A DNA stretch of 64,000 nucleotides from Squalus acanthias (Eukaryota). A program made the position numbers and the translations under genes. The notes under the pieces were generated by a model, which was not told where the DNA came from, ran no database searches, and saw nothing but the letters and a program-made list of their open reading frames with translations. The DNA lies in the NCBI GenBank assembly GCA_030390025.1, contig CM059430.1, positions 47,554,001-47,618,000 of the forward strand, in the 5' to 3' direction. The number at the start of each line of letters is the position of its first letter. The first letter of the stretch is position 1. Of this stretch, positions 1,601-64,000 are shown piece by piece.

Positions 1601-2503
1601 GCAGCAGGCATTTCAGGAAGTGGTGGACAGTGAATATAGTTTTGCAAGTCCATAGGTTGTGGGGGCAAATGTGTAAACTGTTTTCAGGACTGAGGAAGAG
1701 TACCAAGGTAGACTTGAATAAAGGGCATCCACTGAAAGGAAAGGGATGCCTGATCAATATACATCAAACACTCAACCCACAGCATGTTGCTACATCAGCA
1801 ATACAGTCTGCAAAGCATTAACCCCAACCTTCACATCTAACACCCGCTGCCGACCATCTCAGCAAAAGTGGAACTCCAGCTGAGTGACAAAGGCCAAGGT
1901 TTTCGATCACTCTTGGAGATGTTCCACGTTTTCACCCACTCACCATGGCTCCTCAAATTACTTGCATGGTCAAGTCAAAAGTAACTCTCACAAATATGGT
2001 GAACTTCTTCAGCAAAAGGCTCGCAGACCAACCAATGGCAGTTTTATATAGATACGCAGTGAATCAAGAGCTGCACTGCAGAACACCACAGGGAATTAGT
2101 CGTGGGACCAATTACAGTGGACTTGCATCATTGTGTACCCATTAATAAGGCCAGTCCACAGTAAAAGTTCTGCCTCAAAGTTATGGCAATTTTTTTCTCT
2201 CTCCCCACCCCGCCCCACTGGTTTCGGAGAATGCAAAGGTCTACCCACCCAATTTTGCAAGCTGTGTGCGTTGTCGGCACAGGACACTCATCCAGCTTTA
2301 CATCAGGGAATCAGCTATCTAATGTCATGCTAGTTACCTGGAGGACTACAGTTAATTGTTCAGTCAGTTACAATCAATTGTCCTAGCAGAATAGTACTGA
2401 CTCCCTAGTTAGTCATGATGCGGAGATGCCGGTGTTGGACTGGGGTGGACAAAAGTGAGAAGTCGCACAACACCAGGTTATAGTCCAACAGCTTTATTTG
2501 AAA

Positions 2504-2540
2504 TCACAAGCTTTCGGAGCACTGCTCCTTCGTCAGGTGA
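2504..2540 (-). ncRNA. Minimal type I hammerhead ribozyme motif (Penelope family A)
   Basis: Minus strand reads UCAC-CUGACGA-A-GGAGC agu GCUCC-GAAA-GC-UU-GUGA: core boxes, stems I and II, and a palindromic AAGCUU in place of stem III. Confidence 0.8.
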
Positions 2541-3652
2541 AGTGAAGAAATACAAATGGGCACAGCATATATAGACAGAGAACAATGCCTGTGCAGAGAA
2601 CAATGCCAGAACAATGACAGGCCACAGCGAAAAATCGCATAGACCTCCTCAGAAGACGAACACGGGACACAACCAACAGAGTACCCTACGTCGTCCAGTA
2701 CTTCCCCGGAGCGGAGATACTACGCCATGTTCTTCGCAGCCTTCAACATGTCATCGATGACGACGAACACCTCGCTAAGGCCATCCCCACGCCTCCACTA
2801 CTCGCCTTCAAACAGCCGCCTAACCTCAAAAGTACCATCGTTCGCAGCAAATTACCCAGCTTTCAGGAGAACAGCGACCACGACACCACATAACCCTGCC
2901 ACGGCAACCTCTGCAAGACATGCCAGATCATCAACACAGATACCATCATCACACATGAGGACACTACCCACCAGGTACATGGTACATACTCATGTGATTC
3001 GGCCAACGTTGTCTACCTCATACGTTGCAGGAAAGGATGCCCCGGAGCATGGTACATCGGCGAGACCATGCGGACACCGCGCAACAATCGCCAGGCAGGA
3101 GTGTTACCTCCCAGTCGGGGAACACTTCAGCAGTCAAGGACATTCAGCCTCTGATCTTCGGGTAAGCGTTCTCCAAGGCGGCCTTCGAGACACACGACAA
3201 CGCAAAATCGTCGAGCAGAAACTGAAAGCCAAGTTCCGCACCCATGAGGACGGCCTCAACCGGGATCTTGGGTTCATGCCACGCTACATGTAACCCCACC
3301 TGACGTAGAGTCGTCGTTGGCTTGTTCTCTCTACACAGATGCGGCCGGACCTGCTGTGATTTCCAGTAAAAAAAAGTAAAAAGTTTAAAGTTTTTGGTTT
3401 TCCATACAGACTGCAGCATCTGCCACATTAGACCCCTTGTGACCCCACCTCATTGTCTTTGTTGTATTTTGCTATCGTCTTTGATGTAATGTCTTCCTGA
3501 CTGTCCTGGTTGGATTTGATTGCCGTGATTGTCTCTCTGCCGAGGTGTGATAAAGGGCAGTTAGAAAGATTAACTGTAGTCGTCTGGCATTGTTCTCTGC
3601 ACAGGCATTGTTCTCTGTCTATATATGCTGTGCCCATTTGTATTTCTTCACT

Positions 3653-3690
3653 TCACCTGACGAAGGAGCAGCAGCTCCGAAAGCTTGTGA
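3653..3690 (+). ncRNA. Minimal type I hammerhead ribozyme motif (Penelope family A)
   Basis: UCAC-CUGACGA-A-GGAGC agca GCUCC-GAAA-GC-UU-GUGA, followed by AATAAA. Confidence 0.8.
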
Positions 3691-4299
3691 TTTCAAATAA
3701 AGCTGTTGGACTATAACCTGGTGTTGTGCGACTTCTCACTTTTGTCCCTAGTTAGTGGCAGCTACCAGCGATTCCTTTTGTAGTTTATCAGGGGATAATG
3801 CAGTGGAGATAACACAAAATCCTTGAGATAGTCGCCTGAGACAACACTCTCTGCTCACAATAAAGGAGGCAGCACACCCAGTATTAATGTACATTTACCT
3901 TCTGCTGGTGTCTTCCTGCAGTCCATAGATAGCTCATCAGTGAAAAGAGGAGATGCCCTAGTTAACCAGCTGTGCCAAATGTGTAGTGAAGAATACAGTC
4001 ACTAGAGAAAATACTGAATTCAGCAGCTAGTTTAATCTGTCACAATCTCCTTTAAAAAAAAACTTTTAAAATATTGGGAACTCCTTTCATCATCCCAGTA
4101 CCACACCCTACACCACACATCATTCAACCTCACTGTGTGGAGCAGTTGATGACTTGTTTCCTAGCCTCCGGCAATACTGCTCAAGTTAGCCATTGGGAAG
4201 TACATAAGTGTAGTCTTGGATAATTTGCAGATTTTCCTTCCCAGTGTGACTAAGTAGTATCTGGCTGATACCCATTATTGCTTTGCATATCCCTTACAA

Positions 4300-4345
4300 C
4301 AGGGGTATCCACAAACTGCGGCCTATGGACTGCATATGGCCCCAA
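4300..4345 (+). mobile_element. Possible left end of an old hAT/Charlie-type MITE
   Basis: caggggtatccacaaactgcggcctatggactgcatatggccc resembles MER58-like termini; no right end found. Confidence 0.3.
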
Positions 4346-5072
4346 ACCCTACTGGCTCACGCAAGCAACCCAGTCCTATTTGTGCTTATATTTTTTTTTA
4401 ATTTGCTGGTTTGCCTCGTTTGAACGTTAGAACATTTTGGCAAGGACCATTTTAGTGCTTTGGTGGATAAATCCTAAATCAGAACACCAGGGTCTGTTGG
4501 TGTCTGCAACTTGAGATGTATGCAAATTAACAGGAACTTGGATTTAAACTTTATACAGGGCTTTCAAGGCTCCATGGCACATACCTAGATGGCTCACTAA
4601 GACAAAAAGTTTAGACAACTCTGCCGTAGATAGTCTCTTCAGACAGCACTGTGTACTTGTAATCAATTCCCTACAATTCTGTGATGTGTACTGAAAGATC
4701 AGTAAGCTACACTGTAGTTCCAACTTTAGCGAGGCCAGTGCTAAGGGATTCTCAGAAAGTCCTGTGAGTGCCACTGACCTTTGGGCATTTGACCTATGCC
4801 ATTGATATTTGGTCTCCCTGCAGGGGCTCAGTGAACCAACATAGACATTGTAACTAAACAACTGGGATACCATTGTGGTTGGTCACTTGTATTCTATTAT
4901 ACCCATTAAGAACTGTTACAAATTCAAGTTTGTCGTAGATACTTTCTTAGGTTTAGTGACATCTGTTGCTTCCTTAAGCAGCCTTTTGCTTTTATGCCCT
5001 GAATCTACTTATATGATAGCATAAACCAGAATGTAACAAAAGCATCGCTTTGTGATCAGGATTAGATACTAT

Positions 5073-5505
5073 GTCAGCTGTGGCTCAGTGGGTAGCACAC
5101 TTGCCTCTGAGTCAGAAGGTTGTGGGTTCAAGTCCCACTCCAGAGACTTGAGCACAAAAATCTAAGCTAACACTCTGAGGGAGTGCTGCACTGTTGGAGG
5201 TGCTGTCTTTCGGATGAGACATTAAACCTGCTCTCTCAGGTGGATGTAAAAGATCCCATGGCACTATCTCGAAGAAAAACAGGGGAGTTATCCCCGGTAT
5301 CCTGGCCAATATTTAATTGCTCAACCAACATCATTAAAACAGATGATCTGGTCATTTATTTCAATGCGTTTGTGGGACCTTGCTGTGCACAGATTGACTG
5401 TCTCATTTTCTACATTACAACAGTGACTACACTTCAAAAGTACTTCATTGGCTGTAAAGTGTTTTGGGACGTCCGGTGGTCGTAAAAGGTGCAAGTCTTT
5501 CTTTC
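5073..5505 (+). mobile_element. DeuSINE (SacSINE1-like), near full length
   Basis: tRNA-like head tggctcagtgg...ggttcaagtcc; Deu domain caggtggatgtaaaagatcccatggcactat; L2-like tail. Confidence 0.85.
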
Positions 5506-6482
5506 ACATGTGTATTTCTTCAATCCCCACAATGGCAGATTGTCTTACCACTAGGTGAAGATTTTTTATTCTACAGTAAGGTGAAGATACAGAAGTTATA
5601 ATTTGTCCAACTCACTCCCATAAATATAACTTGTCTTTGCATAATATAAAAATAAATACAGTACACTACGCAACTTCAGTGGATCATCTTGCTTGCTTTA
5701 AAAGTTTATTTTCAGCATTTCATTACATAATGGCAGGAATGTAACAAAGGGGTAGTCTGGTGTCATGAATGTAACAAAGGGGCAGTATGGTGCCATTCTA
5801 CTGGATAAACAAGTTATTTTAAATTATGGTGAACACTATGCTCATCTTCGGTGGGTTTCTTACAGTGAAAGGAAATTGCCTTCCCATGTAAAAAGCATCA
5901 ATTGATGATGCTATAAGCTTCTGTCTTTTCATCCTTCATTGATTTATACCTTTTTTAGGCTTGGAAGTGTATTGTAATAATTTTTCTTTCTTGTGGAGTC
6001 TCATTTCATTTTGCATTCTCTCAGTTTGTTTTCCTCTACTCACTGTTAATTCCCTCCTCTTTAACTTCCCCAACATTATTCTCTTGCCTTCTTTCTTTTA
6101 ATTAAATGGGCACGGCCTGTGGTTCCGGTCTTTCAACAATATGCTTGGTTTCAGTTTCCCTTTCTCTCCAGTGCCTGAACAGCTTGGATATTTTCCCAAA
6201 GCCCACTCCTCCCCTTTCACTGAAGTGCACATCACTATAAGCCCCTCACACAACACTTATACCCAAAGTTAGCTCCTCCTTGTGGTGCTCTGTACTCTGC
6301 CCCCTCTCTTGCAGCCTACACAAAAATGTTTACATTTAAAAAAAATTGTTATGACTCTTAATATTGAATGCACATTGGCCAGAATCACCACTCCTTCACT
6401 ACTGAAACATATACTTGTGTAGTGAGTTTTTAAGTTGTGCTTTGGATTTATGATACCAATCTCCAGCACTATCCCACTTGCT

Positions 6483-20060: not shown

Positions 20061-20520
20061 CTGCATTTGGAAAACAAAAAGGATAAAATATTCAGAATGG
20101 GAATGATGCAAACTTCAATTGTGTAGTGATCTTTATAAGTGCTATGAAAACTGGTCATTGAAGTAATCAAATATTCCACTGTCTGTTGAAAAGATAAAAT
20201 ATGTACTGTATATAACTCAAACCGTTATTATTCCCACTTCGATCTGTCTACAGTGATTTGCACCTTGTGATGTCCAATTCAATTAATCCAGCTTCTTCAG
20301 ACTATATTTGATGGCTAATGCTTTGCATCAAAGAACATTTCAGCATTTTTATACTGTAACAATATCAAGAAGTGTGTGGGACCAAATCAAAACAAATCTG
20401 CAGTATTTCACCACAAAGGAAATAATGAACTTGCATTTATATAGCGCCTTTCACAAGCTCAGGATATCCCAAAGCGTTTCACAACCAATAAAGTGCTTTT
20501 GAAATGTGGTCACTGTTGCT

Positions 20521-21716
20521 ATAAGAACATAAGAAGTAGGAGCAGGAGTAGGCCATACGACCCTTCGGGCCTGCTCCGCCATTCAATAGGATCATGGCTG
20601 ATCCGAACCCAGACTCATGTCCACTTCCCTGCCCGCTCCCCATAACCCTTAATTCCCTTATCAGCTAGGAAACTGTCTATCTCCGTTTTAAATTTATTTA
20701 ATGTCGCAGCTTCCACAGCTCTCTGAGGTAGCAAATTCCATAGATTTACTACCCTCTGAGTGAAGAAGTTTCTGCTCATCTCAGTTTTGAAACGGCAGCC
20801 CCTTATTCTAAGATTATGCCCCCTAGTTCTAGTCTCACCCATCAGTGGAAACATCCTCCCCGCATCCACCCGATCAAGCCCTCTCACAATCTTATATGTT
20901 TCGATAAGATCACCTCTCATTCTTCTGTATTCCAATGAGTAGAGGCCCAACCTACTCAACCTTTCCTCATAAGTCAACCCCCTCATCTCCGGAATCAACC
21001 GAGTGAACCTTCTCTGAACTGCCTCTAGAGCAAGTATATCTTTTCTTAAATATGGAAGCCAAAATTGTACGCAGTACTCCAGGTGTGGCCTCACCAGTAC
21101 CCTGTATAGCTGAAGCAAGACTTCCCTGCTTTTATACTCCATCCCCCTTGCAATAAAAGCCAAGATTCCATTGGCCTTCCTGATCACCTGCTGTACCTGC
21201 ATACTAACCTTCTGTGTTTCATGCACCAGGACCCCCAGATCCCTTTGTACTGCAGCACTTTGCAGTTTCTTTCCATTTAGATAATAACTTGCTCTTGGAT
21301 TTTTTCTGCCAAAGTGCATAACCTCACACTTTCCAACATTATATTCCATCTGCCAAATTTCTGCCCACTCACTTAGCCTGTCTGTGTCCTTTTGCAGGTT
21401 TGTTATGTCCTCCTCACTCACTGCTTTCCCTCCCATCTTTGTATCATCTGCAAGCTTGGATACGTTGCACTTGGTCCCCTCCTCCAAATCGTTAATATAG
21501 ATTGTAAAGAGTTGGGGTCCCAGCACTGACCCCTGCGGAACACCACTAGTTACTGATTGCCAACCCGAGAATGAACCATTTATCCCAACTCTCTGTTTTC
21601 TGTTAGATAGCCAATCTTCCACCCATGCCAGTATATTACCCCCAATCCCGTGATTTTTTATCTTGTGCAGTAATCTTTTGTGTGGTACCTTGTCAAATGC
21701 CTTTTGCAAGTCCAAA
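20521..21716 (-). mobile_element. CR1 LINE 3' 1.2 kb with an uninterrupted RT frame
   Basis: About 365 stop-free codons, YLDLQKAFDKVPH...GVPQGSVLGP...LADDTK...stop at 20615, then the CR1 3' UTR. Confidence 0.95.
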
Positions 21717-21919
21717 TAATGTAGGAAATGCGGCAGCCAATTCGCACACAGCAAGGTCCCACAAACAGCAATGAGATAAATGACCAGATCATCTATTATT
21801 GGTAGTGTTGGTTGTGGGATAAATGTTGGCCAGGACACCAGGAGAATTCCCTTATTGTTCTTCGAATAGTGCCATGGGATCTTTTACATCTACCTGAGAG
21901 GGCAGACGTTTAACGTCTC

Positions 21920-23928
21920 TTACCCTTCCAACAAGAGGGAAGGGTAAGGGAACCAAAGTAAGGGCTCCTTGGATGATGAGGGAGATAGAGAAGATGATGA
22001 AACAAAAAAAAGGTGTATGATGCATGTCAGGTGAATTCTTCAAGGGAGAACCAGACCAAATACAGTAAGTTGAGAGGGGAAGTGAAGATGAAAATAAGAT
22101 TGGCAAAGAGAGAATATGAGAGTAGAATGGCGGTTAACATAAAAGGGAACCCAAAAATCTTCAACCGGCATGTAAACAGTAAGCGGGTAGTAAGAGGCGG
22201 GGTGGGGCCTATGAGGGACAAAGAAGGTAATATATGCTTAGAGGCGCCGGGCAAGGCTAGAATACTGAATGAGTACTTTGTATTGGTATTTACTAAGGAG
22301 GTGGATGCTGACAAAATATCGGTAGAAGTGGAAAAGGTAGAAGCAATGGAAGGGGTGAAAATTGATAGACAGGATGTACTAGAAAGGCTGGGTATGCTTA
22401 GAGTGGATAAGTCGCTTGGTCCAGATGGCTTGCATCCCAGGTTGCTAAGGGAATTGGGGGAGGAGATAGTGGAAGGGCTAGCCATAATTTTCCAATCTTC
22501 CCTCGATGCGGGGGAGGTGCCTAAGGATTGGAAAGTGGCAAATGTGACACCATTGTTCAAGAAAGGGTGTAAGGACAATCCTAGTAACTATAGGCCGGTC
22601 AGGAAAAGATTAACAGGCACTTGGAGAGGTTTAAGCTAATTAAAGAGAGCCAACATGGATTTGTAAAAGGCAGATCATGTTTGACTAATCTAATTGAATT
22701 TTTTGATGAAGTAACAGGGAGGATTGATGAAGGGAATGCAATGGATTTTGTCTACATGGATTTTAGGAAGGAGTTTGACAAAGTACCACATAGAAGGCTG
22801 GTTGACAAAATTGAGCCTCATGGAATAGGTGGGTCAGTGGCAGCTTGGATAAGGAATTGGCTTAAGGACAGAAAACAGCCAGTTGTGGTAAATGGCTATT
22901 TTTCAGACTGGAGGATGGTAGACAGTGGTGTTCCCCAAAGGTCAGTGATGGGGCCACTGCTTTTTTTTGATATATATAAATAAATGACCTGGATATTGGA
23001 ATACAGAGTAGAATTTCTAAATTTGCCGATGACACCAAACTTGGGGGTGCGGCAAACAGTGAAGATGATACCAATCGACTGCAACAGGACATAGAAAGGC
23101 TAGCAGAATGGGCAGACAAGTGGCAGATGGAATTTAATAGAGAAGTGTGAGGTAATGCATTTTAGCAGAAGGAACAGGGAGAGGCAATATACACTTAATG
23201 GCACAGTTTTAAAGAGTGTTCAGGGACAGAGGGACCTGGGAGTTAATGTGCATAGGTCCCTGAAGGTGGCAGGACATATTGAGAGAGTGGTTAGCAAAGC
23301 ATATGGGATCTTGGGCTTCATAAATAGAGGTATCGAGTACAAAAGTATAGAAGTTATGCTGAACCTTTATAACGCGCTGGTTAGGCCACAACTGGAGTAT
23401 TGCGTCCAGTTCTGGGCACCGCACTTTAGGAAGGATGTGAAGGCCCTTGAGGGGGTGCAGAGGAGATTTACCAGAATGGTTCCGGGGATGTTAGCTACAA
23501 GGACAGGTTGGAGAAGCTGGATTTGTTTTCATTAGAGCAAAAGAGGTTGAGGGGTGATTTGATAGAGGTGTACAAAATTATGACGGGTTTGGATAGGCTA
23601 GATGGGGAAAGGTTGTTCCCACTAGTTGATGGTACAAGGACTAGGGGACACAGATTTAAGGTTTTGGGCAAGAGATACAGGGGGAATGTGAGGGAAAACT
23701 TTTTTACGCAGCGAGTGGTGAGGACCTGGAACTTGCTACCGACAGAAGTGGTGGAAGTGGAGACACTCAATGTTTGAGGGGAGACTGGATAGGCACTTGA
23801 GGGAAATAAACTTGCAGGGCTACGGGGATAGAGCGGGGGAATGGGACTGACTGGATTGCTCTACAGAGAGCCGGCACGGACTTGATGGGCCGAATGACCT
23901 CCTTCTGTGCCGTTATGGCTCTGTGACT
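21920..23928 (+). mobile_element. CR1 LINE, 5'-truncated and frameshifted
   Basis: GPDGLHPR, QHGFVKGRSCLTNL, FADDTK and RPQLEYCVQFW motifs spread over several frames; 3' tail gatgggccgaatgacctccttctgtgc. Confidence 0.95.
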
Positions 23929-25835: not shown

Positions 25836-26741
25836 AATGTCTTTACAAATGCCTCCTGCAGCCTCCATCCACCCAATATGTTGCCCACAGTCATTTTCCT
25901 CATCCTTGCTCTGGATGTAGGGCTAATTAAGTACATTTACTGTCTATTACAAGCAGCAGTGAAGTTTTTCTATTACCTCAGCTATCCAATCCTTTTTTAA
26001 AGCTTCAAGCAGCTGGCCTTGAAGATAATTAATTCTTTAATTGCACTGAAGTATTTTAAACAGGGCTTGGACATTAGCTAAATATAAACCTTCACTCAGA
26101 ACATCGGGAAATAATTCTTCGAGAAAAAAGATTTTCTTCACTAAAAAAATGTCACACATTCCAGCTTCTTGCCCAAAGGTAGATGAAATGAGTGATATTT
26201 ATGTGTACAATGTTAGCTATTTCTATTTAGTAGACTCAGATTTATTTTTAAAGTTAAAGCTACCTATAAAAACATTTAAAGCACAAAGCGAACAATTATA
26301 GAATTGGGAAAATTCACTTGAGAGAAACATTATTCCCAATCAAAAAAATAACAAATCCAAAATTACTCACTTGGTCTTCCAAAAAGGCTTAAATCACTAC
26401 AAAAGCTATGTGATACCAACAGAACAGTATATCTGCAGCCTACAGCAGTTCTGCCTGATATACTTCATCCAGTATGTGAAGTTTTGATTTTCATTGTAGT
26501 TTAGGCCATTTGTTGAGTGATGTACAAGTTCTCAGGTTATCTAGTCTCATGGTAGAGATTTCTGGAAAAACACTTCAGGCTAAGTCTTGTCCTTAGTGCG
26601 TGCTAGTGTATTTTCAGACTACACCATTAATACGGAAAAAGGAACCAGCAAATAATAAATGCCTATCTTTTTGCAGCTCCCTCTGCAGCTTGAAGTTGCC
26701 CAGGCTCAGTGTTAGAGCTGACCAATAACCAGTTACTATAG

Positions 26742-26940
26742 TGTGGAGATGCCGGTGTTGGACTGGGGTGGACAAATGTGAGAAGTCGCACAATACCAGG
26801 TTATAGTCCAACAGCTTTATTTGAAATCACAAGCTTTCGGAGCGCTGCTCCTTCGTCAGGTGATGAAGGAGCAGCGCTCCGAAAGCTTGTGATTTCAAAT
26901 AAAGCTGTTGGACTATAACCTGGTGTTGTGCGACTTCTCA
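26742..26940. mobile_element. 199-bp palindromic mini-Penelope (family A pseudo-LTR hairpin)
   Basis: 82-bp arms at 26777-26858 and 26861-26942 with 2 mismatches and a 2-nt loop; 12-bp TSD cagttactatag at 26730-26741 and 26941-26952; sequence nearly identical to 2420-2540. Confidence 0.9.
26826..26864 (-). ncRNA. Minimal type I hammerhead ribozyme motif
   Basis: Minus strand reads AUCAC-CUGACGA-A-GGAGC agc GCUCC-GAAA-GC-UU-GUGAU. Confidence 0.8.
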
Positions 26941-29170
26941 CAGTTACTATAGGACAATGAGCAAATAATTTTCCAGAGAATGCGTCAGACTGTTTGGGGG
27001 TTAGGGGAGGGGTGGTATTGTGTGTCAAATATATGATACAGCTAGCAAATTAAAAAAAAAACCTGAGAAAGAAATGATTTTCCTGATACTTAAGGACACA
27101 TCAATCTCTATTTTTCCAGTTGGTTTCCCCCCTCTTTTTCAGGTCTCCTTAGGCCATGCCGCAACTGTGACTGACATGCTCTCGAGCCATTGCTGCTTGA
27201 TACACAGGCTGCAAGGTGACCTTGCTCCAATTATCCTGGCCTTCACTCTATGCCTCCCAACACTAGCTGTGTCAGAGATCAGCAATCTTGTGGAACATGG
27301 CTACAAACCCACATTTGCCACTGCCCAAAGCAGGCAATTGATCTCCAATGATTTGCACCTCCACAAAAGCCTCCCTCTATTTAATTTATTTTTTAAATGG
27401 CATTTTCCCCATTTCCCCCTGTCTGCAAGTGGCATTCATTGCTCAGAGAGTGGGTGGGCTTCCAGGGCCCTAACAAATGTTGCTCAAACGAGTGAATTGT
27501 ATTTTTGAGAGGACCCCAGGATGCCATGGTGGTTCTCTCCAGTGGAGAAGAACCTGGCTTCTCTGTACCACTCTTTCCAAAATGTTCTAGAAACATTCTT
27601 AATCACTATTTTCTTATTATGTTGCTACTAAAGTAGCATTAGTAAACAAAGTTCCTAATGCCACTTGCTCTTCTCCACTATTCTCATTGTGAAAAGGAGA
27701 AATTTAAATAAAAAAGGGTTCTTTCTGGGGGACTGACCATTTTCTATGACAGCTACATATTTTTCCAGGGTTTTAAAATGTTTATCTTCCGATTCTAAAT
27801 TCCTCTGCACCACACACAAGGACTCTTCAGAAAGGGGAGACAACTCGATTACAGCTGTCCACTTATTCCATTCTCCCACTCAGTAGAATCAGCCTGCTCT
27901 CACATTTCACCTCTCTCCAATCTCCTTCCAAAGGAAACTAGGGCAAGTGGCTCAAAGATCAATAACTCAAACGCGTAGTTGTAATATGCATCTTAAAACT
28001 GCATGATTATCTACTGAATTATTTATGGCATATTATGGATGAGCGCAATTCATTGTTGAACCTCGGTTCTGACGAACATTGAATCACAAAAGATGAAGAT
28101 TATTATTTAAGCAAAGGAAAGTTCTCGTAAACTGCCAATACAGCACTTCTAACACTCTGTAGGAGGATTTGGCATTTCTACAGCATATTCAGCCTTACAG
28201 CTATTCTGTTTACCTAAACTGCTTTATAAAAGGAACAGGATTTTGTAAATTAATTAAGTCAGCTTGCGCCAATTTGCCATAGTTCAAACTAGAACCAATC
28301 CAATAGAATCTGGATCATAATCTCTGATCAAACTGTCCACTGTTCAGACAGGCAGACTGACCTCACCGAACAGTGCAAACCAAAAGATTTTTGCAACTTG
28401 CATCCCATTACTATACTCTGTAAAAGTATGAGCATTTATCTTCTGCCACATGAATGACAGGTCAAAAGTAAACAACCAGAGACCTCCTTCGCTTGGTTTT
28501 CAGTCAGTCTGTTAGGTTATTAGATTTATGCAAATTATTTCTCATCCTTAAATTTGCTGCCTCACGTTTTATTAAAAAAAAGTATTTCATATGGGTAACT
28601 TCCTGCACTGGTTGTATGCAGTTCAAATTTAATAAAGAAAAGACATTAATACATAAAAATAAAGATAACATTTTCTAACAGTATAAGTGTGTCCCAAAGT
28701 GTTCACTACAAGGACCTCTTCCTTACTGTATAACTGACAGCTTAAATTGGCTTTTATCCTCAGGTCAGAAAGGGTGTCAGATTTTTTTTAAATATGAGGC
28801 AGGTACCAGCAAACACACTGAATGCCTTATTTGCAGCCATACGGACCGTGATATTACCAGCTACATTTTGCTAACATTCGATCTGAATAGTACAGCGTAG
28901 AGCCCACAACATTACAATACCATTCACATATGTTCTTCTAAATATGCTAACACTTGGTGCACTGACACTGATTTTATTCGACTTGAGAACCCGAGGGGCG
29001 GTGGGAGGAGTCAGCTTTAATCCAGTCTATAAAGAACGTGTTGATGATTTTGCGACACAAAGCACACAGAGGAATTCTTCCCTACCAGCCACTAGTGACA
29101 GCTGTTTTGAAACCAAATAATCAAGGTCTTTTGCCCAAAGAAATTCATTACAATTATGCCCAAATCAACT

Positions 29171-33436: not shown

Positions 33437-33529
33437 TTGAGAGGTCGCACAACACCAGGTTATAGTCCAACAGTTTTATTTGAAATCACAAGCTTTCGGA
33501 ACTATCGCTCCTTCCTCAGGTGAAGTAAA
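33437..33529 (-). mobile_element. 93-bp Penelope family A insert consisting of a hammerhead plus the 3' end
   Basis: Homologous to 2457-2545; 12-bp TSD ttctctcttgaa at 33425-33436 and 33530-33541; lies inside CR1. Confidence 0.88.
33486..33523 (-). ncRNA. Minimal type I hammerhead ribozyme motif (variant)
   Basis: Minus strand reads UCAC-CUGAGGA-A-GGAGC gaua GUUCC-GAAA-GC-UU-GUGA. Changes fall at the variable N7, the stem II loop and one G-U wobble. Confidence 0.78.
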
Positions 33530-35075: not shown

Positions 35076-36926
35076 GTACTTGCAGCACTCCATTCTCTCC
35101 GATCCAACCCTGACATTGTCATTAAACCTGCTGACAAGGGTGGCGCTGTTGTTGTTTGGCGAACCGACCTCTACCTAGCGGAAGTTGAACGCCAACTCTC
35201 TGACACCTCCTCCTACCTCCACCTGGACCATGACCCCACTACCGAACATCAAGCCACCGTGTCCAAGACTGTCACTGACCTCATCTCCTCTGGAGATCTT
35301 CCCCCCACGGCCGCCAACCTCATAGTTCCCCAACCCCGCACAGCCTGCTTCTACCTCCTTCCCAAGATCCACAAACAGGACTGCCCCGGTAGACCCATCG
35401 TTTCAGCCTGTTCTTGCCCCACAGAACTTATCTCTTCCTATCTCGACTCTATTTTTTCTCCCCTTGTCCAGTCTCTTCCCACCTACATCCGCGACTCTTC
35501 CGATGCCCTCCGCCATTTTAACAGTTTCCAGTTTCCCGGCCCCAACCGTCTCCTCTTCACTATGGACGTACAATCCCTCTACACCTCCATTCCCCACCAG
35601 GATGGCCTGAGGGCGCTCCGCTTCTTCCTTGAACAGAGGCCCAACCAGTCCCCATCCACCACCACCCTCCTCCGCCTGGCTGAACTTGTTCTCACATTGA
35701 ACAACAACTCCTTTGACTCTACCCATTTCCTCCAAATTAAAGGTGTTGCTATGGGTACCCGCATGGGTCCTAGCTATGCCTGCCTTTTCGTGGGATATGT
35801 GGAACACTCTTTGTTCCAGTCCTACTCGGGTCCCCTCCCTCACCTCTTTTTCCGGTACATTGATGACTGTATCGGTGCCGTCTCCTGCTCTCGCCCTGAA
35901 CTAGAACATTTCATTCACTATGCTTCCAATTTCCACCCTTCCCTCACCTTCACATGGTCCATCTCCGACTCTTCCCTTCCCTTCCTCGACTTCTCCATCT
36001 CCATCTCTGGGGATAGGTTATTGACTAACATTCACTACAAGCCCACTGATTCCCACAGCTACCTGGACTACACTTCCTCCCACCCCGCCTCCTGTAAGGA
36101 CTCTATTCCATTCTCCCAGTTTCTCCGTCTCCGCCGCATCTGCTCTGATGATGCCACCTTCCATACCAGTGCTTCCGACATGTCTTCCTTTTTCCTCAAC
36201 CGAGGATTCCCCTCTACCGTGGTCGACACGGCCCTCGACCGTGTCCGTTCTATCTCCCGCACATCTGCCCTCACCCCTGCCCCTCCCTCCCGGAACCACG
36301 ATAGGGTTCCCCTTGTCCTCACCTTTCACCCCACCAGCCTCCACATTCAACGGATCATCCTCCGCCATTTCCGCCACCTCCAGCGTGATCCCACCACCAA
36401 ACACATCTTCCCCTCACCTCCCCTTTCAGCATTCCGCAGGGACCGCTCCCTCCGCGACACCCTAGTCCACTCCTCTACCACCCCCAGCACCCCTTCCCCT
36501 TCGCCCGGCACCTTCCCGTGCACGCGCAGGAGATGCAACACATGCCCTTATACCTCCCCTCTTCCCACTGTCCAGGGCCCCAAACACCCCTTCCAGGTGA
36601 AACAGCAATTTACTTGTACTTCCTGCAATTTAGTATACTGTATTCGCTGCTCACGATGTGGACTCCTCTACATTGGGGAGACCAAACGCAGATTGGGTGA
36701 CCGCTTTGCGGAACACCTCCGTTCAGTCCGTAAGGGGGACCCCGAGCTCCCGGTGGCCTGTCACTTTAATTCACCGCTTCACTCCCACTCTGACCTCACC
36801 GTCCTCGGCCTATTACACTGTTCCACGGAAGCTCAGCGTAAGCTCGAGGAACAGCACCTCATCTTTCGTTTCGGCACGCTACAGCCCTCTGGACTCAATA
36901 TCGAGTTCAACAATTTTAGATCATAA
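35076..36926 (+). CDS. Penelope-like reverse transcriptase + GIY-YIG endonuclease (5'-truncated open frame, 616 codons)
   Basis: In-frame IKPADKGG upstream of the tracked ORF start at 35259; LPKIHK, GRPIVS, MDVQSLYTSI, GVAMG, RYIDD; C-terminal LVYCIRC..C.LLYIGET...RFAEH...GLN. Confidence 0.93.
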   Translation, partial: VLAALHSLRSNPDIVIKPADKGGAVVVWRTDLYLAEVERQLSDTSSYLHLDHDPTTEHQATVSKTVTDLISSGDLPPTAANLIVPQPRTACFYLLPKIHKQDCPGRPIVSACSCPTELISSYLDSIFSPLVQSLPTYIRDSSDALRHFNSFQFPGPNRLLFTMDVQSLYTSIPHQDGLRALRFFLEQRPNQSPSTTTLLRLAELVLTLNNNSFDSTHFLQIKGVAMGTRMGPSYACLFVGYVEHSLFQSYSGPLPHLFFRYIDDCIGAVSCSRPELEHFIHYASNFHPSLTFTWSISDSSLPFLDFSISISGDRLLTNIHYKPTDSHSYLDYTSSHPASCKDSIPFSQFLRLRRICSDDATFHTSASDMSSFFLNRGFPSTVVDTALDRVRSISRTSALTPAPPSRNHDRVPLVLTFHPTSLHIQRIILRHFRHLQRDPTTKHIFPSPPLSAFRRDRSLRDTLVHSSTTPSTPSPSPGTFPCTRRRCNTCPYTSPLPTVQGPKHPFQVKQQFTCTSCNLVYCIRCSRCGLLYIGETKRRLGDRFAEHLRSVRKGDPELPVACHFNSPLHSHSDLTVLGLLHCSTEAQRKLEEQHLIFRFGTLQPSGLNIEFNNFRS

Positions 36927-63137: not shown

Positions 63138-64000
63138 GTAGTAGGGATAAACCAGGGAATTACAGGCCAGTGAGCCTAACATCAGTGGTAGGGAAATTAT
63201 TGGAAAAAATTCTGAGGGACAGAATTAGTCTCCACTTGGAGAGGCAAGGATTAATCAAGGATAGTCAGCATAGCTTTGTAAGGGGGAGATCATGTCTGAC
63301 CAATTTGATTGAATTTTGAGAGGGGGTGACTTGGTGTGTGGATGAGGGTAGTGCAGTTGATGTATTCTACATGGACTTCAGTAAGGCTTTTGACAAAGTC
63401 CCACTTGGGAGACTGGTCAAGAAGGTAAGAGCCCATGGGATCCAGGGCAATTTGGCACATTGGATCCAAAATTGGCTTAGTGGCAAGAGGCAGAGGGTGA
63501 TGGTCGAAGGTTGTTTTTGTGACTGGAAGCCTGTGTCCAGTGGTGTACCGCAGGGATCGGTGCTGGGTCCTTTGCTGTTTGTAGTGTACATTATTGATTT
63601 AGATATGAATGTAGGAGGTATGATCAGTAAGTTCGCAGATGACACGAAAATTGGTGGAGTGGTAAATAGCGAGGAGGGAAGCCTCAGGCTACAGGACGAT
63701 ATAGACGGGTTGGTCAGATGGGCAGAACAGTGGCAAATGGAATTTAACCCTGAAAAGTGTGAGGTGATGCATTTTGGGAGGACTAACAAGGAAAGGGAAT
63801 ACACAATGAATGGTAGGATCCTAGGAAGGACAGAGGAACCTTGGTGTGCATGTACATAAATTCCTGAAGGCAGCAGGACAGGTAGATAAGGTGGTTAAAA
63901 AGGCATATGGGATACTTATATACTATGCCTCGGCTAATGAAAGCAAGAGCAGGGAGGTTATGATGGAGCTGTACAAAACGCTAGTTAGGCCACAGCTGGA
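63138..64000 (+). mobile_element. CR1 LINE RT fragment running off the window
   Basis: NYRPVSLTS, YMDFSKAFDKVP, GVPQGSVLGP and KFADDTK, with frameshifts. Confidence 0.93.

What the first reader, a model, noticed from the sequence alone, without database searches (positions are those of the whole stretch)
26730..26952. 199-bp non-coding hairpin insertion that carries a hammerhead ribozyme
Seen: two 82-bp inverted arms (2 mismatches, 2-nt loop), a 35-nt unpaired extension on one side, a perfect 12-bp TSD, no coding sequence, and an intact hammerhead core on the minus strand. The plus-strand copy lost core C3 at the fold-back junction. Known: Penelope-like elements carry minimal hammerheads and make inverted pseudo-LTRs with a tail of roughly 34-37 nt. 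Inference: this is either the shortest possible Penelope insertion product or a member of a non-autonomous, retrozyme-like family that looks like a MITE but moves by reverse transcription.
Basis: partly seen in the sequence, partly recalled or inferred. Interest (0 to 1): 0.72.

Follow-up and report, generated by a model that had tools for sequence, protein, structure and literature searches.

The report
Penelope hairpin stub marks RNA start
This 199-base hairpin is a real, recent insertion made of two head-to-head copies of the end piece of a Penelope-type jumping gene, one of thousands in this genome, and it is likely a dead-end misfire in which both cut DNA strands copied the element's RNA up to its predicted start, so such stubs would be a natural record of how these poorly understood elements insert.

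Summary
The hairpin, 35-nt one-sided tail, 12-bp TSD and minus-strand minimal hammerhead are real. Two related species hold the empty site. The arms are the pLTR of a Penelope-like element with a 919-aa RT frame and Neptune-type linker. The exact junction recurs 594 times, but among about 5,700 short fold-backs with many junctions, and with the tail on either side (11 vs 19 of 30). So it is remade each time at a 3-nt TGA overlap, not copied from a master: not a retrozyme or MITE family. Arm ends pile up at an Inr-like site 30 nt below a conserved TATA word (26 of 65 arms end within 8 nt, 3 of 39 in the next 26), often with an untemplated C. Best reading: two cDNAs, primed on both nicked strands, ran off the capped RNA's 5' end and were joined by microhomology. 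Arms often carry different ribozyme haplotypes (24 of 64), hinting at two RNAs, but distal markers mostly agree. The architecture is published; this scan noted similar stubs, with similar readings, in this and other genomes.

The parts
26730..26741 (+). Target site duplication, left copy (12 bp)
   Evidence: single copy at the empty site in organisms B and C
26742..26776 (-). 35-nt Penelope 'tail': the stretch between the two presumed RT start sites; in the parent it runs up to the ORF's ATG
   Evidence: L153 continues from this sequence directly into the ORF; tail = interval between RT start sites in PMC11167929
26777..26863 (-). Tail-bearing pLTR arm (sense on minus), reaching 3 nt below the predicted +1
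26826..26864 (-). Minimal type I hammerhead: stem I 26864-26860 with 26830-26826, C3 at 26859, extra A before stem II, stem II 26851-26839, palindromic stem III, predicted cut between 26831 and 26830
   Evidence: sequence; folds and variant catalogue; pair counts; cleavage untested
26861..26863 (.). 3-nt TGA microhomology at the head-to-head junction
   Evidence: both arms match the parent over these bases; 594 loci share the 26-mer
26861..26942 (+). Tailless pLTR arm (sense on plus), lacks stem I 5' strand and C3; last 2 bp shared with the TSD
26816..26821 (-). AATAAA word of the pLTR (second copy on plus at 26898-26903)
   Evidence: sequence; function untested
26941..26952 (+). Target site duplication, right copy
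2419..3747 (.). Longer sibling insertion of the same family: short tail arm plus 1.1-kb tailless arm with a broken C-terminal ORF piece, about 12-bp TSD
   Evidence: its ORF piece led to the full-length parent
33438..33529 (-). Single arm of an older subfamily, ending near the predicted +1

Best explanation
The hairpin is a retrotransposon insertion made of two head-to-head pLTR pieces of a Penelope-like element between 12-bp target duplications, and it is likely a dead-end run-off product in which both nicked target strands primed reverse transcription near the RNA's 5' end and the two short cDNAs were then joined. Steps: (1, shown) the sequence is the pLTR and tail that lie directly upstream of the ATG of an RT-endonuclease ORF. 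(2, inferred from PMC11167929) the protein nicks both strands about 12 bp apart and starts RT at two internal sites, giving one arm with the tail and one without. (3, inferred) on a transcript that starts in the pLTR these sites are only about 90-125 nt from the capped 5' end, so each cDNA runs off there, often gaining an untemplated C. (4, inferred) the two cDNA ends are trimmed and joined at 1-4 nt overlaps; the TGA overlap gives this junction, about a tenth of short fold-backs. (5, inferred) the stub has no promoter, no ORF-start sequence and a sequestered ribozyme, so it does not propagate.
For: Empty site in two related organisms. Parent: L153 has pLTR, tail, ATG and a 919-aa stop-to-stop frame with RVT_1. 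TSD 12-14 bp in 51 of 62 two-armed insertions. In a tail-anchored sample (89 of 96 stretches scorable) 26 of 65 tail arms still running end within +3..-4 against 3 of 39 in the next 26 nt; tailless arms 13 of 40 against 1 of 27 (rate ratios 17 and 29). Genome counts of arms reaching +3, 0, -4, -10: 27,210, 21,293, 14,306, 11,752. TATA-like word at -30..-32 in 66 of 73 hits among 165 arms, across subfamilies whose spacer differs; same TATA/Inr spacing as Pen2a_Av (PMC3846280). Where both arms reach +1 with two bases between, 26 of 50 listed loci begin with a non-native C, 22 are native extension, 2 other (by eye). Both arms are made independently: the tailless arm reaches further 5' in 22 and the tail arm in 22 of 62; tail left 11, right 19 of 30 same-junction loci.
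Against: No RNA data: the start site is predicted from motifs and cDNA ends only. The genome-wide drop is spread over about +3 to -4 rather than one base, and the -10 count also loses sequence variants, so the contrast (8-9% vs 3% per base) is rough. BLAST end points can overrun by a few bases. 27 of 89 sampled insertions show only one arm within the stretch fetched, so double priming is not universal or not always completed. The in vitro work is on a Poseidon element whose start sites lie inside the ORF, not on this family. An untemplated C can also come from RT terminal transferase activity (recalled).
Confidence: 0.78

Rival explanations
1. A discrete non-autonomous, retrozyme- or MITE-like family: a master hairpin is transcribed, processed by its hammerhead and re-inserted by the Penelope protein.
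For: 594 loci share the exact 26-nt junction; the 40 best-scoring BLAST places all span (nearly) the whole 199 bp at 96-100%.
Against: Those 40 were picked for likeness. Junctions are a continuum (5,727 short fold-backs). Tail side is mixed, 11 vs 19 of 30. Both outer ends vary by several nt. The window's junction variant is not over-represented (11 vs 10 of 100 rows). No promoter or ORF-start sequence in the stub; hammerhead fold costs 47 kcal/mol. No same-strand tandem ribozymes.
Confidence: 0.04
2. One cDNA (or an antisense transcript) folds back and primes on itself, so the second arm is a DNA copy of the first (the self-priming reading of PMC3846280).
For: A tiny inverted repeat (TCA-CC-TGA) sits at the junction; distal markers agree between arms in 72 of 77 and 26 of 26 pairs; in 5 of 12 two-site-discordant loci both arms share a rare downstream haplotype.
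Against: A copy cannot extend further 5' than its template nor hold a tail its template lacks, yet each arm is the longer one in 22 of 62 and the tail sits on the junction-shortened arm in 19 of 30. Stem II haplotypes differ between arms in 24 of 64 loci, at two linked sites in 16.
Confidence: 0.08
3. Same double priming, but the pile-up of ends marks something other than the transcription start: an RT stall at the folded hammerhead, a splice acceptor, or another processed 5' end.
For: The pile-up abuts stem I; an intron end maps to the 5' side of helix I in D. virilis Penelope (PMC4209133). About half of arms that reach +3 run past -4.
Against: RT meets the 3' side of the ribozyme first and few arms end there; the TATA word keeps a -30..-32 spacing; arms that pass the site continue in colinear genomic sequence, as expected from read-through of tandem units; untemplated C at the end.
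Confidence: 0.09
4. Assembly artefact (collapsed or chimeric palindrome).
For: Palindromes are error-prone in assemblies; no listed contig spans the whole hairpin.
Against: Empty site differs by exactly 199 + 12 bp in two organisms; read-derived contigs enter the insert from both flanks; fold-back joints appear in read-derived contigs; arms differ at two CpG-type or transition sites.
Confidence: 0.01

Closest known systems
Endonuclease-bearing Penelope-like element insertions with an inverted 5'-truncated pLTR, one-sided 30-40 nt tail and TSD (Pen2a_Av, PMC3846280; overview PMC8557442)
   Same: Head-to-head pLTRs, one-sided tail, TSD, TATA plus Inr-like site 20 nt apart, pLTR abutting the ORF start.
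   Different: Here both arms stop at or just below the predicted +1, there is no ORF body, and such stubs are about half of two-armed insertions (35 of 62 within 240 nt). That paper explains the inversion by self-priming on an antisense template; the data here fit two independent primings better.
PAc (Anolis Poseidon) in vitro reaction, PMC11167929
   Same: Both target strands cut and extended; two internal RT start sites that define the tail; product length set by the template's 5' end; ribozyme cleavage not needed (both arms here span the uncut site).
   Different: PAc's sites lie 111-118 nt inside the ORF; here the tail ends at the ATG. In the parts read the paper does not describe joined head-to-head products, run-off at a start site or two templates.
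Minimal type I hammerheads of PLE pLTRs (PMC4209133)
   Same: Core, unpaired base before stem II, G10.1-C11.1, palindromic 15.2-16.2, hypervariable stem II loop; pairs of motifs 100-700 bp apart on opposite strands were already noted there.
   Different: Here the two motifs are fused, one is clipped, and the intact one would be buried in the long hairpin.
Non-LTR retrozymes (bioRxiv 10.64898/2026.07.22.740005)
   Same: Short, non-coding, pLTR-derived, hammerhead-bearing, dependent on PLE protein.
   Different: Retrozymes are same-strand tandem repeats with at least two complete ribozymes; this is an inverted pair with one, and no fixed unit.

Membership tests
EN+ Penelope-like element insertion | Terminal repeat belongs to an element with an RT ORF | tested here: met
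   Arms 89-96% to the pLTR of L153-L157, frames of 812-919 aa; RVT_1 E 7e-08
EN+ Penelope-like element insertion | C-terminal GIY-YIG endonuclease | tested here: inconclusive
   VYLIRC...WYIGET motif seen by eye (motif recalled); Pfam gave no GIY-YIG hit
EN+ Penelope-like element insertion | Inverted 5'-truncated pLTR copy | tested here: met
EN+ Penelope-like element insertion | One-sided 30-40 nt tail | tested here: met
   35 nt here; one side only in 30 of 30 same-junction loci
EN+ Penelope-like element insertion | Target site duplication | tested here: met
   12 bp, proven by empty site; 12-14 bp in 51 of 62
Neptune clade | CX2-5CxxC motif between RT and endonuclease (PMC8557442; shared with Nematis) | tested here: met
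   C-X4-C-xx-C in all 5 long frames printed
Neptune clade | RT phylogeny with reference clades | not tested
   No named reference sequences were fetched; 'Neptune-type' rests on the linker motif
Minimal type I hammerhead | Conserved core, unpaired base at 9/10.1, G10.1-C11.1, palindromic stem III | tested here: met
   Invariant in 18 of 18 chosen variants; 180 of 180 cells paired, two pairs with two-sided changes (variants are related, so shuffles overstate significance)
Minimal type I hammerhead | Self-cleavage | not testable with these tools
   No clear pile-up of arm ends at the predicted cut
Non-LTR retrozyme | Same-strand tandem units with two or more complete hammerheads | tested here: not met
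   Inverted pair, one complete core
Non-LTR retrozyme | Fixed unit copied from masters | tested here: not met
Non-LTR retrozyme | Circular RNA intermediate | not testable with these tools
   Only contigs were offered
MITE | Symmetric terminal inverted repeats and uniform length (definition recalled) | tested here: not met
   35-nt one-sided tail; lengths 92 to 3,562 nt in one family; sequence is retrotransposon pLTR

The most novel reading that the evidence does not exclude
Penelope inserts as a two-RNA machine: a protein dimer carries two separate transcripts, one copied onto each nicked strand, and the 'dimer-only' minimal hammerhead serves to pair the two RNAs (palindromic stem III, cross-strand stem I) rather than to cut them. 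The stubs record this: both arms end at an RNA 5' end, both span the uncut ribozyme, the intramolecular stem II differs between arms in 24 of 64 loci (two linked sites in 16, partner haplotypes in the order of family abundance), while stem I type matched in all 12 discordant loci read in full. Two templates alone: about 0.55; ribozyme as the pairing device: lower.
Probability: 0.3. Interest if true: 0.8.

Novelty: new member of a known kind. Interest (0 to 1): 0.47.

Why it matters
As a sequence it is ordinary repeat DNA. As a class it bears on an open question: how Penelope-like elements, the sister group of telomerase RT, make their inverted, tailed insertions. Thousands of stubs in one genome give in vivo counterparts of the one published in vitro reaction, predict the transcription start to the base, argue against simple self-priming, and turn the two-RNA dimer idea into a direct experiment. 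Practically, it warns that a shared fold-back junction does not define a family, so such stubs should not be annotated as MITEs or retrozymes. Long perfect hairpins in introns could also feed dsRNA pathways (untested).

Tried and rejected
Rfam at gathering score: no match in the window. Pfam on the window's ORF fragments: nothing meaningful; no GIY-YIG hit on the full frame. RNA evidence: no RNA holder listed. Random 200-kb sample gave too few copies (5 insertions), so targeted sampling was used. Locus-level check of arm discordance in read-derived contigs (L263): no listed piece spans both stems and the table was cut, so inconclusive; it did show that the mosaic 31-mer (common stem II plus rare downstream variant) is abundant in reads (depth 24,000 and 12,000 vs about 6-7 for single copy), which argues against a polishing artefact. 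An early small-sample impression that the G-stem haplotype is nearly always on one arm only (7 of 9) did not hold: 40 of 64 loci have it on both. Random pairing of arms from the whole family is rejected (19 of 85 discordant vs 43.6 expected; 5 of 77 vs 39.8). A peak of ends at the ribozyme cut was looked for: about 5 of 100 rows start there, 3 of them explained by a 4-nt overlap, so not claimed. Look-up by sequence in earlier findings: nothing. No atlas result for the endonuclease domain was obtained. No structure or complex prediction was run.

Full report
Observation. The insert 26742-26940 lies between identical 12-mers, with arms 26777-26858 and 26861-26942, two transition mismatches and a 35-nt one-sided extension. 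All six frames hold stops. The minus strand carries a complete minimal hammerhead; the plus copy starts at U4. Rfam has no match at gathering score, but across 18 chosen family variants all 180 stem cells pair, with two-sided changes in stem I (4 sequences) and stem II (1). Contigs of organisms B and C pass from 26729 straight to 26941 in consecutive record positions, which is the empty site with one 12-mer (records 17 and 24); their flanks differ from the window by 2-5%, so the insertion is young.

Parent. The window lies in a 3.7-Gb genome. A sibling at 2419-3747 carries an ORF piece; searching with it gave 150 scored places of 23,737 candidates, five of which I fetched for their 812-919 aa frames. 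L153 reads pLTR, hammerhead, tail, ATG, frame, tailless pLTR. Pfam finds RVT_1 but no GIY-YIG model; the endonuclease motif is by eye and recalled. The C-X4-C-xx-C linker matches the Neptune/Nematis signature of PMC8557442; no tree was built. So the hairpin is two pieces of the region just upstream of the ATG.

Family or repeated accident? The exact junction 26-mer occurs 594 times among 5,727 short fold-backs (different anchors, so the one-tenth share is approximate) and 27,210 arms. The 50 loci listed show many junctions. Among the first 30 same-junction loci the tail is on the left arm in 11 and the right in 19; outer ends vary; CpG decay at the junction is symmetric (11, 10 and 1 of 100 rows, by eye). 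The parent holds TCA-CC-TGA there, so a 3-nt overlap makes this junction again and again. The stub has no TATA word and nothing beyond the tail, and keeping the ribozyme stems raises the fold energy from -145.3 to -98.1 kcal/mol; on the minus strand the complementary arm is transcribed first. A self-propagating family is unlikely.

Where arms end. I anchored on the tail plus two arbitrary host bases (1,647 matches, first 100 on contig 1, 96 stretches after merging two clusters), mapped them on one parent copy and dropped 7 without an adjacent tail arm. Of 89, 62 have two arms and 27 one within the stretch fetched; 35 of the 62 are within 240 nt. TSDs are 12, 13 or 14 bp in 30, 15 and 6 of 62. 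With 0 as the A seven bases above C3, 26 of 65 tail arms end in +3..-4 and 3 of 39 in the next 26 nt; tailless arms 13 of 40 and 1 of 27. Whole-genome counts fall 27,210, 21,293, 14,306, 11,752 at +3, 0, -4, -10. A TATA-like word sits at -30..-32 in 66 of 73 hits among 165 arms (92 arms had none, many being junctions or other subfamilies), the spacing reported for Pen2a_Av. After an arm that reaches 0, the next base is C in 49 of 100 rows, where the parent has G or A (by eye, some loci twice; many of these C are also native to the second arm). Where both arms reach 0 with two bases between (79 loci, 50 listed), 26 begin with a non-native C, 22 are native extension and 2 other. I read this as run-off at a capped 5' end; terminal transferase activity is an alternative (recalled).

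One synthesis or two? The tailless arm reaches further 5' in 22, the tail arm in 22, neither in 18 of 62, which a fold-back copy cannot give. Stem II loop types differ between arms in 19 of 85 young pairs (of 110 pairs; the 30 loci chosen by likeness left out), against 43.6 under random pairing and 14 gap columns in about 4,400 elsewhere. On inspection one is a private change, two have a second insertion in an arm, and three concordant pairs belong to an older subfamily. Conditioning on one rarer haplotype (1,061 rows, first 100 = 64 loci, by eye): 40 have it on both arms, 16 differ at two sites, 8 at one; the two changes are linked (p 3e-8). Against two unrelated templates: the base after AATAAA differs in only 5 of 77 and a more distal marker in 0 of 26, and in 5 of 12 discordant loci read in full both arms share a rare downstream haplotype, while 3 of 12 differ there too (2 of 16 fetched loci did not parse, 2 were palindrome controls). 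The mosaic haplotype is abundant in read-derived contigs, but no listed contig spanned both stems of the test locus. Two sister RNAs from co-active sources fit; local conversion of stem II is not excluded.

Mechanism. PMC11167929 shows for an Anolis element cutting and extension of both strands, two internal RT starts that bound the tail, product length set by the template's 5' end, no need for ribozyme cleavage, and a predicted dimer. Applied here: on a transcript starting in the pLTR, both starts lie close to the 5' end, so two short cDNAs run off and are joined at small overlaps; longer arms come from read-through of tandem units. Shown: structure, parent, TSD, end distribution, independence of arms. 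Inferred: nicking, priming, start site, cap copying, joining.

Known and new. The architecture is described (PMC3846280, PMC8557442), and opposed hammerheads 100-700 bp apart were noted (PMC4209133). Five literature searches showed no paper on run-off stubs at the start site or on two templates; the library lacks most subscription journals. Seen: PMC11167929 abstract, main text and start of methods, no supplements (its Figs S1-S2 map genomic ends and may bear on this); PMC4209133 abstract, results, discussion; PMC3846280 passages and discussion; PMC8557442 12 of 23 passages; bioRxiv 10.64898/2026.07.22.740005 parts 1-3 of 5, supplements not seen. The scan's own notes hold 370 findings with these words in at least 33 genomes, several with the run-off reading and one with an even-odds two-template hint; my reading was written down before and these are not counted as support.

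Verdict. Real feature, new member of a known kind, ordinary as a locus, useful as mechanism evidence. Interest 0.47; the two-RNA, ribozyme-as-pairing-device reading has probability 0.3 and would merit 0.8.

Noticed in passing
window 2419-3747: Longer insertion of the same family: short tail arm, 1.1-kb tailless arm with a broken endonuclease-end ORF piece; arms carry different stem II loops.
   Followed up: partly
window 35076-36926: 616-aa stop-free frame of a second Penelope-like family, 36% identical to the parent protein over 613 aa.
   Followed up: partly
window 20615-22639 and 63320-63859: CR1-like LINE RT pieces (name recalled from the translation).
   Followed up: no
tail-side flanks of fetched loci vs window 20201-21883: 33 of 225 flanks match this CR1-like piece against 80 of 1000 random 70-mers, and 11 of the 33 fall within about 80 nt: a possible target hot spot (lead from e1-9922716; flanks not a random sample). 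The window's own flanks are unique.
   Followed up: partly
window 26941, run X5: The contig of a second individual ends exactly at the first base of the right TSD, whereas X1's runs 26 nt into the insert; a branch there would fit a heterozygous filled/empty site (only 55% of the run read).
   Followed up: no
L167 (G000:C1:83405790-83415700): Four copies of one hairpin stub inside a tandem array: local duplication, not new insertions.
   Followed up: no
L153 (G000:C5:55451500-55461400) 3020-6146: Near full-length copy whose 5' end lies about 15-20 nt above hammerhead C3, with pLTR, tail, ATG, open frame and tailless 3' pLTR.
   Followed up: partly
L155, L191, L265: An unrelated GC-rich insertion interrupts the pLTR at the same place just below the AATAAA word in three loci.
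   Followed up: no
family-wide: The commonest stem II occurs on several lineage backgrounds, suggesting recombination or convergence among source elements.
   Followed up: partly
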